A DNA stretch of 64,000 nt from Candidatus Hermodarchaeota archaeon (GTDB lineage Archaea > Asgardarchaeota > Hermodarchaeia > Hermodarchaeales > Hermodarchaeaceae), in assembly GCA_016839365.1 (NCBI GenBank), contig JAEOUH010000044.1, positions 1 through 64,000 of the forward strand, given 5' to 3'. Made by a program: the position numbers and the translations under genes. This document shows, piece by piece, positions 31,259-37,150 of the stretch (positions are counted from its first letter, which is position 1; each line of letters starts with the position of its first letter). The notes below the pieces were generated by a model. The model saw only the letters and a list, made by a program, of their open reading frames with translations. It searched no databases and was not told the origin of the DNA.

Positions 31259-32431
31259 ATGAAAGCGATCCGGGAGCTTTGGGTATTAGATGAGGAGATT
31301 CAGAAAATTGCAGAGCAAATTAATACTCTCGAAGAGAAACGAAACGCATTTGCTTCTATACTTCAAGCAAACCGCCATAGCTTGAATTTGCATGATAACC
31401 TCCCGTTAGCAAAAAAGTATCTGGTGGATAACCAGCTAGCCCGACAAGTTAAGCCCACGGGATTACAGGGGCTTCGGGTTGGCGGAGTTGATGGGGGGTT
31501 GCTCAAGAAAACCTTACGAGGAATCGAATTGGTGATTACTCGGGCATGCGCTACAATCTTTGAATATACGCCATCAAATCGGGTATCAGTGACATATTTT
31601 CCAGAAAAATCGATAGCACCCAAGATCAAAGCGGAATTGAACCCCATCTCTTGGCGAGAAGCTGATGTCAGTGCATCCCTTGAACGAGTTAAAGCCGAAC
31701 TTGAGCTGGCAATCCGAGTCCAGGACCATCATCCTGTGGAGCTGCTTCTTTTAGATGGCTCATTACGACCCCATATAAGTGATCGCCCAGCCAGTAATTC
31801 GTCGTTTTCTCCAAAATATAAACAAATCAAGCAGTTGTACGAGACCCTCTTTGAAAAAACTCAAGAAACTGGGACCCTGCTTGCCGGTGTTGTTAAAGAT
31901 AGTCGTAGTCAGCGATTTGTTAGAATCTTGGGTGAAATCTTGCCACACTTGATCTCTCGATACCCCGTGCTGAAACCACTCTTACAGATGGATTATCGAT
32001 CCATCCTACAAACGTGTTATGATTCTGATTTGTTTTTCAGAATTCTCAATGTAGGAGAGCGCTCACCAATTCTGCAACTCAATGAAGTAAACAAAGACCA
32101 AACATCAGAACCACTAACTAAGAGTTTTCAAGATAACAAGAACCTCGTCTGCATCTATCTTCGAACGGCGAAATTCGACTACCCTTTACGAATTGAGGTC
32201 TTCTCTGGATCCCATGACTCAGTTCGAGTCGTTGAAAAAGTAAGTGCAATGTTGTTGCCAATGTCTTCGGATAATGAGGGTTTTGCGCTCCCTACTGTTC
32301 TCATTGATGCTGATTCGCAAGCCCGATTAATTGAGAGGGATCTTGATTTTCTGTTCTCACAGCTAGCAAATCGGATTGGATATCCTGAGAGTATGTTGAA
32401 ACTTAGACGAGAGAGGATGCCATTTCATTAG
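31259..32431 (+). CDS. nurA: DSB-resection nuclease NurA
   Basis: GVDGG, LLLLDGSL, GVVKDS, PLRIE; upstream of herA. Confidence 0.85.
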   Translation: MKAIRELWVLDEEIQKIAEQINTLEEKRNAFASILQANRHSLNLHDNLPLAKKYLVDNQLARQVKPTGLQGLRVGGVDGGLLKKTLRGIELVITRACATIFEYTPSNRVSVTYFPEKSIAPKIKAELNPISWREADVSASLERVKAELELAIRVQDHHPVELLLLDGSLRPHISDRPASNSSFSPKYKQIKQLYETLFEKTQETGTLLAGVVKDSRSQRFVRILGEILPHLISRYPVLKPLLQMDYRSILQTCYDSDLFFRILNVGERSPILQLNEVNKDQTSEPLTKSFQDNKNLVCIYLRTAKFDYPLRIEVFSGSHDSVRVVEKVSAMLLPMSSDNEGFALPTVLIDADSQARLIERDLDFLFSQLANRIGYPESMLKLRRERMPFH

Positions 32432-32451: not shown

Positions 32452-33981
32452 ATGAACGCTGAACCGCTTGGAACAATTGTGTGTACTGAAGACGGGCCGT
32501 CAACAGAACAAATCTCATTTGTGGTAGGCAATCGTAATGCTTCAACCACCACGGTGGGACAGATTCCTGTTCATGTAGGACAGTATGTGTCTGTTGAAAC
32601 CGAAGAAGGATTGGTTATGGCTCACGTCGAACAAGTGTACAAAACCAATCGATACTTCTCCCAAGTTGATGCTGTGCATGAGTTTACAAGATCGGGTAAA
32701 CCATTTGGAGCAATTTTCCCCATTGATCGGTGGGAATACATCCTAGCCAAAGCAAAACCTCTAGGAATTTTCGAACAGGATCGGATTCAACGAATTACCT
32801 ATCCACCCTCGCCGGGGGCTATTGTTTCTTCACCTGATCCTAACATACTCTCCCAATTCCTAGGATTCTCGAAAGATGGAATTCACCTTGGACATCTATT
32901 GTTCCATCGTATCCCGGCAACTTTTGATTTGACTAAGATGTTTCAAAAACATGTGGCGTTATTGGCGATGAGTGGTGCAGGAAAGAGTTACGCGGCATCG
33001 GTTATGATAGAGGAGCTTTTGGCACGTAAGACAGCTCAGGGACGACCCGCCATTCTCATCATTGATGTTCATGGTGAATACGGGGGATTAGCTGAAGCCC
33101 AGGAGATCAAAGGAGCAAAGGTTGCAGATCAGTTATCCGTTATTCGAAGTCCTCTTGTTGAGATAGCGACACCGTATATGAACGCAAAATCCTTTGCAGC
33201 CTATTCTCCCGACATGGGAACCATCCAAGTTCGAGAACTTTCAAGGATTATTCGGACATTGCGGAGTGTGCGCAAAGGTCAGCCTTATGATCTGGGGGAT
33301 TTGATTACAGCCCTGGAAAAGGATCCATCAATTAATACTAGAACACGAGAAGCGCTCCTTGGATGGCTCGACAACCTCCAAAGTTACAACCTGTTTGGTA
33401 AGACATCAACGCCAGAATGGCAGAAGCTAATGAAACCGGGTCATGGAGTCATTCTGGATATGAGTGAAACAGTAAGCCTCCAAAAGAAACAGATTATTGT
33501 TGATGCTGTTCTTCGCCATCTATTCAACTTAAGGCGTGATGGAACAATTCCCCCCACAGTAGTGTTCCTCGAGGAAAGTCACCAATTCTGCCCCGAAGCA
33601 CGCCGAGCTTTAGCCTTTTCTAAGGGAATCGTTGAAACCATAGCGCGAGAGGGGCGGAAATATAATCTTTCTTTGTGCATTATTTCCCAACGGCCTGTTC
33701 GACTCTCAACCACAGTCCTTTCACAGTGCGGAACCAATATTTTTCTTCGAATTTCTAATCCCTATGATCTCGACCATATCCGTGCCACATCAGAAAAAAT
33801 CACAAAGGCAACCCTCACATCGATATCGAGCCTCAGCGTGGGAGAAGCCCTCGTGGTTGGTCAAGCAACCCGTTTTCCAGTATTCATACAGGTGCGTAAA
33901 AGAACAACAAAAGAGACGGCGTTTCACGAGGACTTCGAAACTGTGGCAAAGAAATTTGAAAAGAAAGAAAAGGCAAAATAG
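32452..33981 (+). CDS. herA: HerA helicase/translocase
   Basis: HAS barrel, HVALLAMSGAGKS, IDVHGEY, EESH, IAREGRK, SQRP. Confidence 0.92.
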   Translation: MNAEPLGTIVCTEDGPSTEQISFVVGNRNASTTTVGQIPVHVGQYVSVETEEGLVMAHVEQVYKTNRYFSQVDAVHEFTRSGKPFGAIFPIDRWEYILAKAKPLGIFEQDRIQRITYPPSPGAIVSSPDPNILSQFLGFSKDGIHLGHLLFHRIPATFDLTKMFQKHVALLAMSGAGKSYAASVMIEELLARKTAQGRPAILIIDVHGEYGGLAEAQEIKGAKVADQLSVIRSPLVEIATPYMNAKSFAAYSPDMGTIQVRELSRIIRTLRSVRKGQPYDLGDLITALEKDPSINTRTREALLGWLDNLQSYNLFGKTSTPEWQKLMKPGHGVILDMSETVSLQKKQIIVDAVLRHLFNLRRDGTIPPTVVFLEESHQFCPEARRALAFSKGIVETIAREGRKYNLSLCIISQRPVRLSTTVLSQCGTNIFLRISNPYDLDHIRATSEKITKATLTSISSLSVGEALVVGQATRFPVFIQVRKRTTKETAFHEDFETVAKKFEKKEKAK

Positions 33982-33984
33982 GAG

Positions 33985-34130
33985 TGGTGGGCACGGCGGG
34001 ATTCAAACCCGCGACCTCCGGCTAACCTAGGCTTCGCAAACGAATGTTCGGAGCGACTCCATATAAGGCATACACACCCCATGCAAAGTGCACGGCGGTT
34101 CGGCGCTCCATCAGGCTAAGCCACGTGCCC
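33985..34130 (-). tRNA. tRNA-Ile(UAU) with two introns (29/30: 34070-34100; 37/38: 34024-34061) and encoded CCA
   Basis: Acceptor GGGCACG/CGTGCCC-A-CCA, D arm, T arm GCGGG-TTTGAAT-CCCGC. After removing both introns the anticodon arm is CCGGC-CT-TAT-AA-GCCGG (77-nt mature tRNA). Both introns form BHB-type motifs. Confidence 0.88.
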
Positions 34131-34177
34131 TTGTGAAATCTGTGATGTTTTTCCGTAGCTTAAATGTGTTGGCACAC

Positions 34178-37150
34178 CTACTTCTTTTTCGCCAAGAAGG
34201 CAAAGCTGATTTTTTCCTTAGCGAATTTGAGTTTATCTTTGGCGGTCCATTCAAGAGCGGGAAGTTCTTCACTGATATTCAGCTGAGAAGCCCCAACCTT
34301 CGTTGAGATAGCATCCGCTGTATCCTTAATTGCTTGCCTCAGATCATTTGAAGTTGTTGCCACAAACAATTCGATACGTTGTGTAACATGAAGACCTGCT
34401 TTTTTGCGAGTTGCTTGAATTTGTCTAATTACATCTCGAGAAAGACGTTCCGCACGGAGTTCAGGGGTTTCTGAAATGTCGAGGTATACTGTAGCAAAGG
34501 GGAGCTCCATCTCTTTCAAATCGCCACCCTTAGCTTGCTTAAGGATTTGAACAGTTTTTACATTTGTTTGGCTGGCAACCACGTTGCTGAAGTGGTCCAG
34601 TTGGAATTCTTTCGTTGAAGGGACAATTACTAGGCGTTGACAGGGCCATCGAAGTTTGAGTCCCACTTGTTGCCGAATATGCTGTACTGTATCAACAATT
34701 TCAGACACCCACTCCATTTCTTGACTCAATTCAGAATCAATCAGATTCAACTCTGGAGATGGCCAAGATAGCATGTGGACACTAATGGGGGCATCTGTTT
34801 CAACAGACCGGACCAAGGCTTGATACATTTTTTCTGTTAGGAATGGGAGGACAGGGGCTAGAACTGCTAGAAGAGTCCGCAATACTTGATATAGGGTGTT
34901 GAAAGCCGCAGTTTTCGTTTCGTCCTGAGAACTCACCCAGGTTCGAGAACGAACGAGTTTGATATACCATCGACTGAGATCCCTTACTACGAAGTCTTCC
35001 ATTAACCGAGGGACATACGGTAATTCGTATTCATCTAGTCGCTCAGTGACTTGTTTGATAAGCAGGTGCAACTGAGAAAGAATCCAACGATCCTCATCCT
35101 GAAGCTGACTCAGTTTAAATTCATGTAATTTTGGATCGTAATTTGCGGCTTTCATGAACGTTGTGGCAAAAACGTAGACATTCCACAGTATCGAAATGCT
35201 GCGTCGGGTATCCTCAACATCCTTCCAGATGAAGCGCATATCTTCGCCGGGTCCAGTACTTTTGATACTATAAATTCGGAGCGTGTCTGCCCCAACTTTC
35301 TCAACAATTTCTTCGGGAAGTACACCCACGCCCTTTGATTTAGACATGGGTCGACCTTGTTCGTCAGTGGTGAATCCGTGCATATACACGTTCCTATAAG
35401 GTTCCCTGTCTGCCACCAACATGGTCGAGTTGAAGAGTGTATTGAACCAATTGCTAATCTGATCTTTTCCTTCGATGACAAACTCGGCAGTTTCCCAATT
35501 ATCAAAGTCCATGGTCCCGAAGGTTGCCCATCGTGTTGCCCAGGGTGCTACTCCACTGTCTAACCATACATCGAGAACATCATCTACCCGAGACATAGTA
35601 CCATTACATTTAGTGCAACCCCATGTGGCTTCGTCGACCCATGGGCGATGAAGATTCTCTAGTTTCTTACCACTTTTTTCGGTTAATTCGTCTGCACTGC
35701 CAATCACTTCTATATGGTTGCACTTGTCACAGTTCCAGATGGGTAGAGGGGCACCCCAGTATCGTTGGCGGGAGATACACCAGTCACGGAGATTTTGTAC
35801 CCAGTTTCGGAACCATGTGTGACCTGCCCAGTCGGGAATCCATCGGATATCCTCATTTCTCTTGATGATTTCGTGTCGAAGATCGCTAACTCGGAGGAAC
35901 CATTGATCTGTGGCTAGATAGATTAGGGGGTTACCACATCGCCAGCAGTGGGCGTATTCGTGCTCAATGGTATCTTGATGGATGAGTAAGCCCTTCTTTC
36001 GCAAATCCATGAGAATTACTTCACTGGCATTTTGAACCTTCATTCGAGCATATTTTCCACCCTCTTCAGAAAATGTGCCAGAAAGTGTAACTGGGCAAAA
36101 TATGGGGATTCCTTCCCGCTCCCCTACTTCAAAATCTTGTGGACCATGCCCAGGGGCCATGTGAACGAGGCCGGTTCCTTGTTCAAGTGTTACATATTCT
36201 TCACTCGGCACTATCGAATGAACTTTTGTGGATTCTTGGTGGAATTTCGCTTGACGAGGAACCTCATCCACTAGAGGATGTTCATACCGGAGACCGACAA
36301 GATCTGAACCTTTTACTTCTTCAATAACCGTGTACGGCTTGTCTAAGAGTCCTTGGAGAATAATATTCGCAAGTCCCTTTGCGAGTATCCATACTTCCTT
36401 GTCAACTTGAACTCGGACATATTGGAATTCAGGATGCACCATCACCGCCATATTGGCAGGTAACGTCCAAGGTGTTGTAGTCCAAATGACGATAAACTCG
36501 TGTAATCGATCAATGACTGGAAACTTGACCCAAATTGAATAGTCTTCAATTGTGCGGTACTCGTGTTCACGTTTTGCGATGGCTGTTTCACACCGAACAC
36601 AACAATCAATCGAACGGAGCCCCCGGTACAAGAATCCGCGGTCATGGGCTTTTTTCATCAGATACCACGTGCCTTCAATGTAGGGATTATCTAATGTTCG
36701 GTAGGGGCGATTCCAATCCATCCAGACACCTAACCGCTTAAATTGCTCTGTCATAGTATCTAAATTCGAGAGAGCAAATTCTTGGCATCTTTGAGTGAAT
36801 TTGTCTACCCCGATTGTTTTTTCAATATCCAGTTTCGATTTGATGCCTAGTTCTTTCTCAACACGCACTTCAATGGGTAATCCATGCATGTCAAACCCTG
36901 GAGTATCGATCACACGGAACCCTCGCATCCGCTGATACCGCAGAACCAGATCCTTCATTATCTTGTTCCAAGCAGTTCCAAGATGAATAGCACCGGTCGT
37001 ATAGGGGGGGCCATCCAGGAATTGGAATACTGGGCGATCCTTAAGCATCTCCTTGACTAGGTCATACACTTGGTGTTTCTACCAAAACTCCAGTATCTCC
37101 TGTTCTAATGAGAGAAAATCAAATTTCTTTGGAAGCTCTGAAACTGGCAT
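34178..37150 (-). CDS. ileS: Isoleucine--tRNA ligase; in-frame TAG at codon 24 (37079-37081)
   Basis: DGPPY, HLGT (HIGH), WTTTPWTLP, GTGLVH, DWCISRQRYWG, PMSKS. N-terminal MPVSELPKKFDFLSLEQEILEFW lies in frame upstream of the TAG. Confidence 0.95.

What the first reader, a model, noticed from the sequence alone, without database searches (positions are those of the whole stretch)
33985..34130. tRNA-Ile with UAU anticodon, hidden by two BHB introns around an 8-nt exon, directly behind ileS
Seen: the minus strand gives a full cloverleaf only after two introns are removed. Intron 2 (38 nt, 37/38) has C32-U33-U34-A35 pairing with intron UAGG, 3-nt bulges and an outer GG/CC helix. Intron 1 (31 nt, non-canonical 29/30) has G24-C25-G26-C27 pairing with GUGU and outer ACC/GGU, CCG/UGG and UGCA/UGCA helices. 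The middle exon GCCTTATA (34062-34069) carries anticodon TAT. The gene lies 47 bp downstream of ileS on the same strand, with TATA-like ATTTAAG at 34159-34165. Established: most archaea decode AUA with tRNA-Ile2(CAU) agmatinylated by TiaS. UAU is reported only in a few archaeal lineages (e.g. Nanoarchaeum, Korarchaeum), whereas eukaryotes use an intron-containing tRNA-Ile(UAU) with intron-dependent pseudouridylation. Inference: this lineage may decode AUA the eukaryotic way, with a linked synthetase-tRNA pair. Intron 1 disrupts the D stem and interrupts the stem flanking intron 2, which implies ordered splicing.
Basis: partly seen in the sequence, partly recalled or inferred. Interest (0 to 1): 0.85.

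Follow-up and report, generated by a model that had tools for sequence, protein, structure and literature searches.

The report
Two-intron Asgard tRNA-Ile(UAU) behind ileS
This is a real isoleucine tRNA gene with a UAU anticodon, hidden from standard finders by two introns, in a Hermod-type Asgard archaeon that lacks TiaS, the usual archaeal enzyme for reading AUA; a few other archaea are already known to do this, but its anticodon-side intron carries a conserved, unexplained match to the tRNA's own D arm.

Summary
Minus strand 34130-33985 gives a 77-nt cloverleaf, called tRNA-Ile(TAT) by ARAGORN, once a 31-nt intron at 29/30 and a 38-nt intron at 37/38 are removed. In 13 same-genus genomes all 77 exon columns are invariant. 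The intron-1 hairpin is 53% identical, with 6 of 9 pairs changed on both sides. A sister-genus allele lacks intron 1 exactly at the predicted junction.

The genome uses AUA (10.2 per 1000 codons) as Ile. TiaS was not found here or in any of 18 family relatives. An ileS-linked UAU tRNA with a 37/38 intron also occurs in four other TiaS-lacking Asgard families, and in no TiaS-positive family searched.

UAU in place of TiaS is published for Nanoarchaeum, Korarchaeum and ARMAN, and heavily interrupted Asgard tRNA genes are published too. I found no paper reporting UAU in Asgard. Earlier notes of this scan report the same thing on other DNA, in at least 33 other Asgard genomes. This is therefore a new member of a known kind.

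One new lead: intron-2 bases i7-i12 pair 6/6 with tRNA positions 21-26 in nearly every lineage examined, with covariation. Its function is unknown. No RNA reads could be obtained.

The parts
33985..34130 (-). pre-tRNA-Ile(UAU) gene, 146 nt: three exons, two introns, encoded CCA
34101..34130 (-). exon 1: acceptor 5' strand, D arm, and anticodon stem positions 27-29
   Evidence: 0 of 30 columns vary in 13 genomes
34070..34100 (-). intron 1, 31 nt, non-canonical position 29/30; a hairpin flanked by BHB-forming ends
   Evidence: The hairpin is 53% identical with 6 of 9 pairs compensatory; the flanks are 96.5% identical. It is absent at exactly this junction in the sister-genus loci L017/L026.
34062..34069 (-). 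exon 2, GCCUUAUA = positions 30-37; anticodon UAU at 34065-34063
   Evidence: invariant in all Hermod, Odin-like, Atabey, LC30-like, f15 and f20 loci examined
34024..34061 (-). intron 2, 38 nt, canonical position 37/38; unusually conserved (92% identity within the genus)
   Evidence: a 37/38 intron is present in every lineage examined
33985..34023 (-). exon 3: positions 38-76, with T loop UUUGAAU, discriminator A73 and CCA
   Evidence: 0 of 39 columns vary
34072..34075 (-). GUGU at the 3' end of intron 1, pairing with G24-C27 (34106-34103): the central 4-bp helix of BHB1
   Evidence: It is part of the precursor's MFE fold, with 3-nt bulges on both sides that hold both splice sites. It is invariant in the genus; one sister-genus genome has GUGC, which strengthens the helix.
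34026..34029 (-). UAGG in intron 2, pairing with C32-A35 (34067-34064): the central helix of BHB2
   Evidence: other lineages have UGAG or UAAG, which keeps the pairing
34050..34055 (-). intron-2 bases i7-i12 (CGCUCC), complementary to tRNA positions 21-26 (GGAGCG, 34109-34104)
   Evidence: 6/6 pairs in nearly every lineage examined, with double changes at three pairs; function unknown
34158..34172 (-). conserved spacer box CCAACACATTTAAGC (BRE/TATA-like), 28-42 nt upstream of the mature 5' end
   Evidence: Invariant in most same-genus genomes while the flanking spacer drifts; the sister genus has GCCAACA..TTTAAAA. Promoter function is inferred.
34178..37069 (-). ileS, isoleucine--tRNA ligase, 963 aa, ending 47 nt upstream of the tRNA
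   Evidence: TIGR00392, 880.8 bits; the same gene order occurs in f1, f2, f12, f15 and f20

Best explanation
The locus encodes the AUA-reading isoleucine tRNA of a Hermodarchaeota-type Asgard archaeon. The gene is probably transcribed from its own BRE/TATA-like box in the 47-nt spacer behind ileS, as a 146-nt precursor (inferred). The splicing endonuclease EndA, here encoded by two catalytic-domain genes, would cut at two bulge-helix-bulge motifs (inferred). One motif is a relaxed one at 29/30, whose central helix borrows G24-C27 from the D stem. The other is the canonical one at 37/38, whose central helix uses C32-A35. Ligation yields a 77-nt tRNA with anticodon UAU, A37 and A73 (shown by sequence). 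Charged by the adjacent IleRS, this tRNA reads AUA directly (inferred), replacing the tRNA-Ile2(CAU)/TiaS/agmatidine route, which this family lacks (absence of TiaS shown; absence of tRNA-Ile2 not shown). Intron 1 is a lineage-specific gain. The 37/38 intron and the ileS linkage are shared with at least four other TiaS-lacking Asgard families.
For: Spliced product: ARAGORN calls it tRNA-Ile(tat).

Comparative support: exons have 0 of 77 variable columns in 13 genomes. The intron-1 hairpin is 53% identical with 6 of 9 compensatory pairs. Overall 98.3% of cells pair, against 30-45% in slid controls.

Junction: a natural allele without intron 1 reads ...GGAGCGCCG|GCCTTATA....

BHB1 appears in the MFE fold.

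Tertiary pair (read directly from the sequence): Hermod has A19 with U56, where the LC30-like and Atabey genes have G19 with C56.

Codon use: AUA is 10.2 per 1000 codons and 13.5% of Ile codons. At this genome's ATA sites in ileS, orthologues carry I 58%, V 20% and M 5%, like ATT/ATC sites.

TiaS: both Pfam domains are absent from this genome, and TiaS_FLD is absent from 18 of 18 family relatives while present in 111 of 201 sampled Asgard genomes.

Co-distribution: the UAU-arm/BHB pattern hits 23 genomes, all in TiaS-negative families, against 1 hit for the reversed control. f20 was added by inspection.

EndA: two catalytic-domain genes, and (alpha-beta)2 EndA with the L1 insert is published for Asgard (PMC5829648).

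Synteny with ileS holds in five families.
Against: The genome is 83.7% complete. The elongator tRNA-Met was not found, so the tRNA inventory is incomplete and absence of tRNA-Ile2(CAU) cannot be claimed from it. BHB1's central helix is weak (two G-C and two G-U pairs) and its exon-side outer helix is only 2 bp with a bulged A. ViennaRNA does not form BHB2's central helix spontaneously. An unmodified U34 could also read AUG, and how that is avoided is unknown. TiaS-negative families f9 and f23 gave no UAU tRNA with my patterns.
Confidence: 0.88

Rival explanations
1. The tRNA is real, but AUA is still read mainly by a tRNA-Ile2(CAU) modified by TiaS. Both would have been missed because these are incomplete MAGs and because intron-rich tRNA genes escape detection.
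For: The genome is 83.7% complete. The elongator tRNA-Met was not found, so CAU tRNAs can be missed, and my strict scan is blind to 29/30-type architectures.
Against: TiaS_FLD was not found in any of 19 genomes of the family (72-91% complete), nor in closed or near-complete genomes of the other UAU-bearing families. The same search finds it in 111 other Asgard genomes and in 4 control archaea. The UAU pattern and TiaS never co-occur in a family.
Confidence: 0.04
2. The locus is a decaying or non-functional tRNA relic, and the two 'introns' are insertions that are never removed.
For: No expression data. BHB1 is a relaxed motif with two G-U pairs. Standard finders reject the locus.
Against: All 77 exon positions are invariant across 13 species-level genomes, while the intron-1 hairpin has diverged to 53% identity with compensatory changes. 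Both splice sites sit in 3-nt bulges. No other AUA reader was found, although there are 4553 AUA codons in 1044 long ORFs.
Confidence: 0.02
3. The UAU tRNA marks a codon reassignment or ambiguity: it is charged with Met or reads both AUA and AUG, rather than acting as a dedicated Ile decoder.
For: Reviews argue that a U34 tRNA would read both AUA and AUG (PMC8879553). The modification state here is unknown.
Against: At this genome's ATA sites orthologous IleRS proteins carry I or V in 78% of cells and M in 5%, the same profile as at ATT/ATC sites and unlike ATG sites (only 6 sites). A73 and A37 fit Ile identity, and the gene is fixed behind ileS in five families.
Confidence: 0.04

Closest known systems
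tRNA-Ile3(UAU) of Nanoarchaeum equitans and Candidatus Korarchaeum cryptofilum (PMC8450103; PMC6000648)
   Same: An archaeal tRNA-Ile with a genomically encoded UAU anticodon, which makes tRNA-Ile2(CAU) unnecessary. The Korarchaeum gene also carries an intron.
   Different: This one is in Asgard archaea, for which I found no published report. It has a second, non-canonical intron at 29/30. It is fixed directly behind ileS in five families. Unlike the Korarchaeum case described in PMC6000648, it does not look like a recent copy of the genome's own tRNA-Ile(GAU): the acceptor stems differ (GGGCACG against GGCTCAG).
pre-tRNA-Ile(UAU) of ARMAN-2, -4 and -5, with a 25-nt intron at 37/38 (Fujishima et al. 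2011, PMC3239211)
   Same: UAU anticodon, a canonical 37/38 BHB intron, and simultaneous lack of TiaS and tRNA-Ile(CAU). Those authors drew the same parallel with eukaryotes.
   Different: ARMAN uses an epsilon2 EndA and its cleavage was shown in vitro. Here there are two EndA catalytic-domain genes (the (alpha-beta)2 layout) and no experiment. Whether ARMAN introns carry the D-arm-complementary element was not tested.
Eukaryotic nuclear tRNA-Ile(UAU), whose intron is needed for pseudouridine at positions 34 and 36 (cited in PMC8879553 and PMC6000648)
   Same: UAU anticodon, and an intron next to the anticodon that is retained in every lineage examined.
   Different: No evidence here for pseudouridine or for a Pus1-type enzyme acting on the precursor. 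The partner tRNA is Ile(GAU), not AAU/IAU. The intron is defined by a BHB motif cut by an archaeal EndA.
[quoted passage not shown]
   Same: Several BHB introns per gene at non-canonical positions, missed by standard annotators, and gained lineage by lineage.
   Different: That study does not mention Ile, UAU or Hermodarchaeia. The present gene adds a decoding consequence and one intron that is retained throughout rather than gained sporadically.

Membership tests
Archaeal tRNA-Ile3(UAU), an AUA decoder that replaces TiaS/tRNA-Ile2 | Regular cloverleaf with anticodon UAU in the mature sequence | tested here: met
   ARAGORN calls the 77-nt spliced product tRNA-Ile(tat). UAU is conserved in all relatives.
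Archaeal tRNA-Ile3(UAU), an AUA decoder that replaces TiaS/tRNA-Ile2 | No TiaS in the genome | tested here: met
   PF08489 and PF22641 give no match in this genome. PF08489 is 0 of 18 in the family, while controls and 111 other Asgard genomes are positive. Caveat: these are MAGs, 72-91% complete.
Archaeal tRNA-Ile3(UAU), an AUA decoder that replaces TiaS/tRNA-Ile2 | No tRNA-Ile2(CAU) gene | tested here: inconclusive
   Only an initiator-type CAU tRNA was found (contig C76). The elongator tRNA-Met is missing too, so the inventory is incomplete.
Archaeal tRNA-Ile3(UAU), an AUA decoder that replaces TiaS/tRNA-Ile2 | AUA codons are in use and mean Ile | tested here: met
   10.2 per 1000 codons. 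Orthologues carry I or V at this genome's ATA sites (6 sites).
Archaeal tRNA-Ile3(UAU), an AUA decoder that replaces TiaS/tRNA-Ile2 | Charged with isoleucine by IleRS | not testable with these tools
   A73 and A37 are present and IleRS is encoded 47 nt upstream. Aminoacylation needs an assay.
Archaeal bulge-helix-bulge introns (EndA substrates) | A 4-bp central helix flanked by two 3-nt bulges, with the splice sites at symmetrical positions | tested here: met
   BHB1 appears in the MFE fold, with helix 25-28/56-59 and bulges 29-31 and 60-62. BHB2 has C32-A35 paired with UAGG and bulges U36-A37-i1 and i37-i38-A38.
Archaeal bulge-helix-bulge introns (EndA substrates) | At least one outer helix (hBH or HBh') | tested here: met
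   Intron 1 has a 9-bp intron-internal helix with covariation. Intron 2 has the anticodon stem plus GG/CC.
Archaeal bulge-helix-bulge introns (EndA substrates) | The genome encodes an EndA type able to cut relaxed motifs | tested here: inconclusive
   Two separate PF01974 genes, with 188-aa and 200-aa frames, fit an (alpha-beta)2 enzyme. The L1 insert reported for Asgard (PMC5829648) was not checked here.
Archaeal bulge-helix-bulge introns (EndA substrates) | The intron is absent from the mature RNA | not testable with these tools
Indirect support comes from the intron-less allele at 29/30 in the sister genus.
Eukaryote-type AUA decoding (tRNA-Ile-UAU with intron-dependent pseudouridines, plus tRNA-Ile-IAU) | UAU tRNA with an obligate intron at 37/38 | tested here: met
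   A 37/38 intron is present in all loci of five families.
Eukaryote-type AUA decoding (tRNA-Ile-UAU with intron-dependent pseudouridines, plus tRNA-Ile-IAU) | The major Ile tRNA has an AAU anticodon deaminated to IAU | tested here: not met
   The major Ile tRNA is GAU (contig C54:10307-10409, with a D-loop intron). No credible AAU arm was found.
Eukaryote-type AUA decoding (tRNA-Ile-UAU with intron-dependent pseudouridines, plus tRNA-Ile-IAU) | Pseudouridine at positions 34 and 36, made on the intron-containing precursor | not testable with these tools
   Needs mass spectrometry or pseudouridine mapping.

The most novel reading that the evidence does not exclude
The 37/38 intron of Asgard pre-tRNA-Ile(UAU) is retained because it works on the precursor. 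Its bases i7-i12 pair with D-arm positions 21-26 and hold the precursor in an alternative fold that excludes both the D stem and the 37/38 splicing motif. That fold could time the removal of the other introns. It could also present the anticodon for an intron-dependent modification of U34/U36, as in eukaryotic tRNA-Ile(UAU). If so, intron-dependent maturation of the AUA reader would predate eukaryotes.
Probability: 0.2. Interest if true: 0.75.

Novelty: new member of a known kind. Interest (0 to 1): 0.5.

Why it matters
AUA is the one sense codon that most bacteria and archaea can read only after chemically rewriting a CAU anticodon. Eukaryotes use a UAU tRNA whose intron is needed for its maturation. 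In this sample of 201 Asgard genomes, whole families either have TiaS or have an ileS-linked, intron-bearing UAU tRNA, and I never saw both in one family. That makes the history of AUA decoding near the root of eukaryotes testable. It also warns annotators: ARAGORN mis-called this locus and its relatives as Met, Gly, Asp, Thr, Leu or Gln, so tRNA inventories of such genomes will wrongly show AUA as unreadable. The covarying match between intron and D arm gives a concrete, mutable element for asking why this particular intron is never lost.

Tried and rejected
- ARAGORN with introns calls the raw locus 'tRNA-Met(cat)', with a 49-nt intron splitting the anticodon, a weak stem and a 20-nt extra arm. 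I rejected this as an artefact. In relatives the same locus is called Gly, Asp, Thr, Leu or Gln.
- my intron-less UAU-arm pattern had a wrong 3' stem, so it is uninformative.
- the relaxed pattern matched as often as its reversed control, so it is uninformative.
- the permissive anticodon-arm scan gave hundreds of chance hits and was discarded.
- the strict scan missed the positive control, because the 29/30 intron leaves only 2 exon bases before the loop. It cannot exclude similarly built CAU genes.
- The CAU hit on contig C30 is not a tRNA.
- Families f9 (0 of 41 with TiaS) and f23: there is no UAU tRNA behind ileS, and two targeted patterns gave nothing or control-level hits. A G097 hit carrying CGCTTC at i7-i12 lies in coding-like sequence without tRNA features. 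How these families read AUA is unresolved here. Earlier scan notes say that Loki-type genomes have a differently built UAU gene; I did not test that.
- I considered whether the intron/D-arm match is a copied D-stem 5' strand (gene conversion). I rejected this because the two strands make different G-U choices in several lineages.
- I considered whether it could coexist with BHB2 as a pseudoknot. I rejected this on topology: there is no linker between G26 and C27.

Full report
**What is there**

The minus strand from 34130 to 33985 reads as a tRNA gene in five pieces:
- exon 1, 34130-34101
- intron 1, 34100-34070, 31 nt
- exon 2, 34069-34062, GCCTTATA
- intron 2, 34061-34024, 38 nt
- exon 3, 34023-33985, ending in CCA

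ARAGORN and Rfam find nothing on the raw window. After both introns are removed, ARAGORN returns a regular 77-nt tRNA-Ile(tat). It has a 7-bp acceptor stem, a D stem GCUU/GAGC, an anticodon stem CCGGC/GCCGG, the loop CUUAUAA, a T stem GCGGG/CCCGC and discriminator A73. ARAGORN's own intron mode calls the raw locus 'Met(cat)' with the anticodon split by the intron, which is an artefact.

**Comparative test**

The window lies in a 2.2-Mb MAG (46% G+C, 83.7% complete). Its IleRS is closest to MAGs labelled Hermodarchaeota or Promethearchaeota, that is Asgard archaea. The same locus is present in all 14 same-genus genomes and in the sister genus.

In an alignment of 13 distinct same-genus precursors:
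- the exons have 0 of 77 variable columns
- the intron-1 hairpin is 53% identical
- the 11 intron-1 bases that build the splicing motif are 96.5% identical

Counting the proposed pairs gives 98.3% paired cells, against 30-45% when partners are slid. Six of nine pairs in the intron-1 hairpin change on both sides, and there are 16 compensatory cells against 6.5 +/- 2.0 in shuffles (0 of 500).

One sister-genus genome (L017/L026) has no intron 1 and reads ...GGAGCGCCG|GCCTTATA.... This is a natural intron-less allele at exactly the predicted junction. Relatives carry other extra introns, in the D loop and at about 59/60, which is the lineage-by-lineage gain described for Asgard tRNA genes (bioRxiv 10.64898/2026.10.13.758758).

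Read directly from the sequence, Hermod genes have A19 with U56, where the LC30-like and Atabey genes have G19 with C56. That is a compensated tertiary pair, as expected for a working tRNA.

**Splicing motifs**

The MFE fold of the 146-nt precursor (-60.2 kcal/mol) already contains BHB1. G24-C27 pair with GUGU, and the helix is flanked by the 3-nt bulges C28-G29-i1 and i30-i31-G30, which hold both splice sites. BHB1 also has a 9-bp intron helix and a 2-bp exon helix.

BHB2 is canonical: C32-A35 pair with UAGG, with bulges U36-A37-i1 and i37-i38-A38. Forcing BHB2 in the full precursor costs about 5 kcal/mol. Forcing both motifs gives -52.2 kcal/mol, with BHB2's exon helix reduced to 2 bp.

The genome has two EndA catalytic-domain genes. 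That fits the (alpha-beta)2 enzyme with broad specificity published for Asgard (PMC5829648).

**Decoding**

AUA makes up 10.2 per 1000 codons and 13.5% of Ile codons. At the six ATA sites of ileS, 18 orthologues carry I 58%, V 20% and M 5%, like ATT/ATC sites and unlike ATG sites. AUA therefore means Ile.

Neither TiaS domain is found in this genome. Across 201 sampled Asgard genomes TiaS_FLD is present in 111. It was not found in:
- f1 (this family), 0 of 18
- f2, 0 of 4, including a closed 1.42-Mb genome
- f9, 0 of 41
- f12, 0 of 3
- f15, 0 of 5
- f20, 0 of 3
- f23, 0 of 3

A pattern for the UAU arm plus its BHB hits 23 genomes, all in f1, f2, f12 and f15. It hits none in TiaS-positive families, and the reversed control gives one hit. 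f20 has the gene too, as seen by inspection. In all five families the tRNA sits directly behind ileS.

The genome's other Ile tRNA is GAU. It is hidden by a D-loop intron and ARAGORN mis-called it as His (contig C54:10307-10409). I found only an initiator-type CAU tRNA, and the elongator tRNA-Met is also missing. Absence of tRNA-Ile2 therefore rests on the absence of TiaS, not on my tRNA inventory.

**Promoter**

This box is conserved across the genus while the rest of the spacer drifts, and the sister genus has GCCAACA..TTTAAAA. I infer that the tRNA has its own promoter despite its tight linkage to ileS.

**An unexplained feature**

Intron 2 is 92% identical within the genus, far more than intron 1. 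Its bases i7-i12 are complementary to tRNA positions 21-26, which are the 3' strand of the D stem plus G26, in the lineages examined:

| Lineage | Positions 21-26 | Intron i7-i12 |
|---|---|---|
| Hermod | GGAGCG | CGCTCC |
| LC30-like | GGAGCG | CGCTTC |
| Atabeyarchaeum | AAAGCG | CGCTTT |
| Odin-like | AGAGCG | CGCTCT |
| f15 | GGGGCG | CGTCCC |
| f20 | GGAGCG | CGTTCC |

- One Odin-like genome scores 5/6.
- Slid registers give 1-5 pairs.
- Three pairs change on both sides.
- The element always sits at i7-i12, although the rest of the intron differs between lineages.

Forced in the precursor, this helix costs only 1 kcal/mol against the MFE. It excludes the D stem, the BHB1 central helix and, on topology, BHB2.

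In ten other canonical-intron tRNAs of this genome, the same register gives 0-5 pairs with a median of 2. Asp(GUC), however, has a perfect 6-mer one base further on, so the feature may not be unique to this tRNA. I could not assign a function. The candidates are a folding timer and a handle for an intron-dependent modification. I searched the earlier scan notes for this feature and found none describing it.

**Comparison with what is known**

UAU in place of TiaS/tRNA-Ile2 is published for Nanoarchaeum and Korarchaeum (PMC8450103, PMC6000648). It is also published for ARMAN, where the tRNA likewise carries a 37/38 intron and where the authors drew the eukaryotic parallel (PMC3239211). Multi-intron Asgard tRNA genes that annotators miss are also published. 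My searches found no paper reporting UAU or loss of TiaS in Asgard archaea.

Earlier notes of this scan report the same decoding arrangement in at least 33 other Asgard genomes. I used them as leads and re-tested the TiaS/UAU exclusivity and the ileS linkage myself.

**Verdict**

It is a new member of a known kind. The eukaryote-like framing is only partly justified, because the partner tRNA is GAU rather than IAU and the modifications are unknown.

**Limits**

- No RNA evidence could be obtained.
- All genomes used are MAGs.
- Families f9 and f23 remain unresolved.

Noticed in passing
window 34050-34055 and 34104-34109 (minus strand); also loci L068, L069, L080-L086: Intron-2 bases i7-i12 are complementary to tRNA positions 21-26 in nearly every Asgard lineage examined, with covariation at three pairs. 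Intron 2 is also far more conserved than intron 1 (92% against 68.5% identity). The function is unknown.
   Followed up: partly
genome contig C54:10307-10409, minus strand (outside the window): ARAGORN calls this tRNA-His(gtg), but it has a CCUGA/UCAGG stem with the loop CUGAUAA. It is the genome's tRNA-Ile(GAU), hidden by a D-loop intron. Its acceptor stem (GGCTCAG) is unrelated to that of the UAU tRNA (GGGCACG).
   Followed up: partly
genome contig C19:54023-54128 (outside the window): The canonical intron of tRNA-Asp(GUC) holds a perfect 6-mer (GATGAT) complementary to its own positions 21-26 (ATCATC), at i8-i13. Intron/D-arm complementarity may therefore occur in other tRNAs too.
   Followed up: no
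window 33999-34005 (T loop) and 34111-34112 (D loop), minus strand: The T loop is UUUGAAU, with U56 instead of C56, and the D loop has G18-A19 instead of G18-G19. This is a compensated change of the 19-56 tertiary pair, shared by both Hermod genera but not by the LC30-like or Atabey genes.
   Followed up: partly
genome contigs C80:7-173, C12:583-714 and C51:9032-9183 (outside the window): Further multi-intron tRNA genes that ARAGORN misses or mis-calls, for example a Lys(UUU) gene with D-loop and 37/38 introns on C80. Only about 34 tRNAs are called in the whole genome, and several isoacceptors, including the elongator Met, are unaccounted for.
   Followed up: partly
window 32452-33981 (+) and 31259-32431 (+): A HerA/FtsK-like ATPase ORF (509 aa; weak NCBIfam HerA hits, far below cut-off) ends 4 nt from the tRNA's 3' end, in convergent orientation. 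It is preceded by a 390-aa ORF with no NCBIfam match.
   Followed up: no
loci L080-L083 (f2, Odin-like): The UAU tRNA there has the T loop UCCGAAU, with C at position 55 where U/pseudouridine is almost universal, and a short third intron next to a duplicated CCGG at about 43/44.
   Followed up: no
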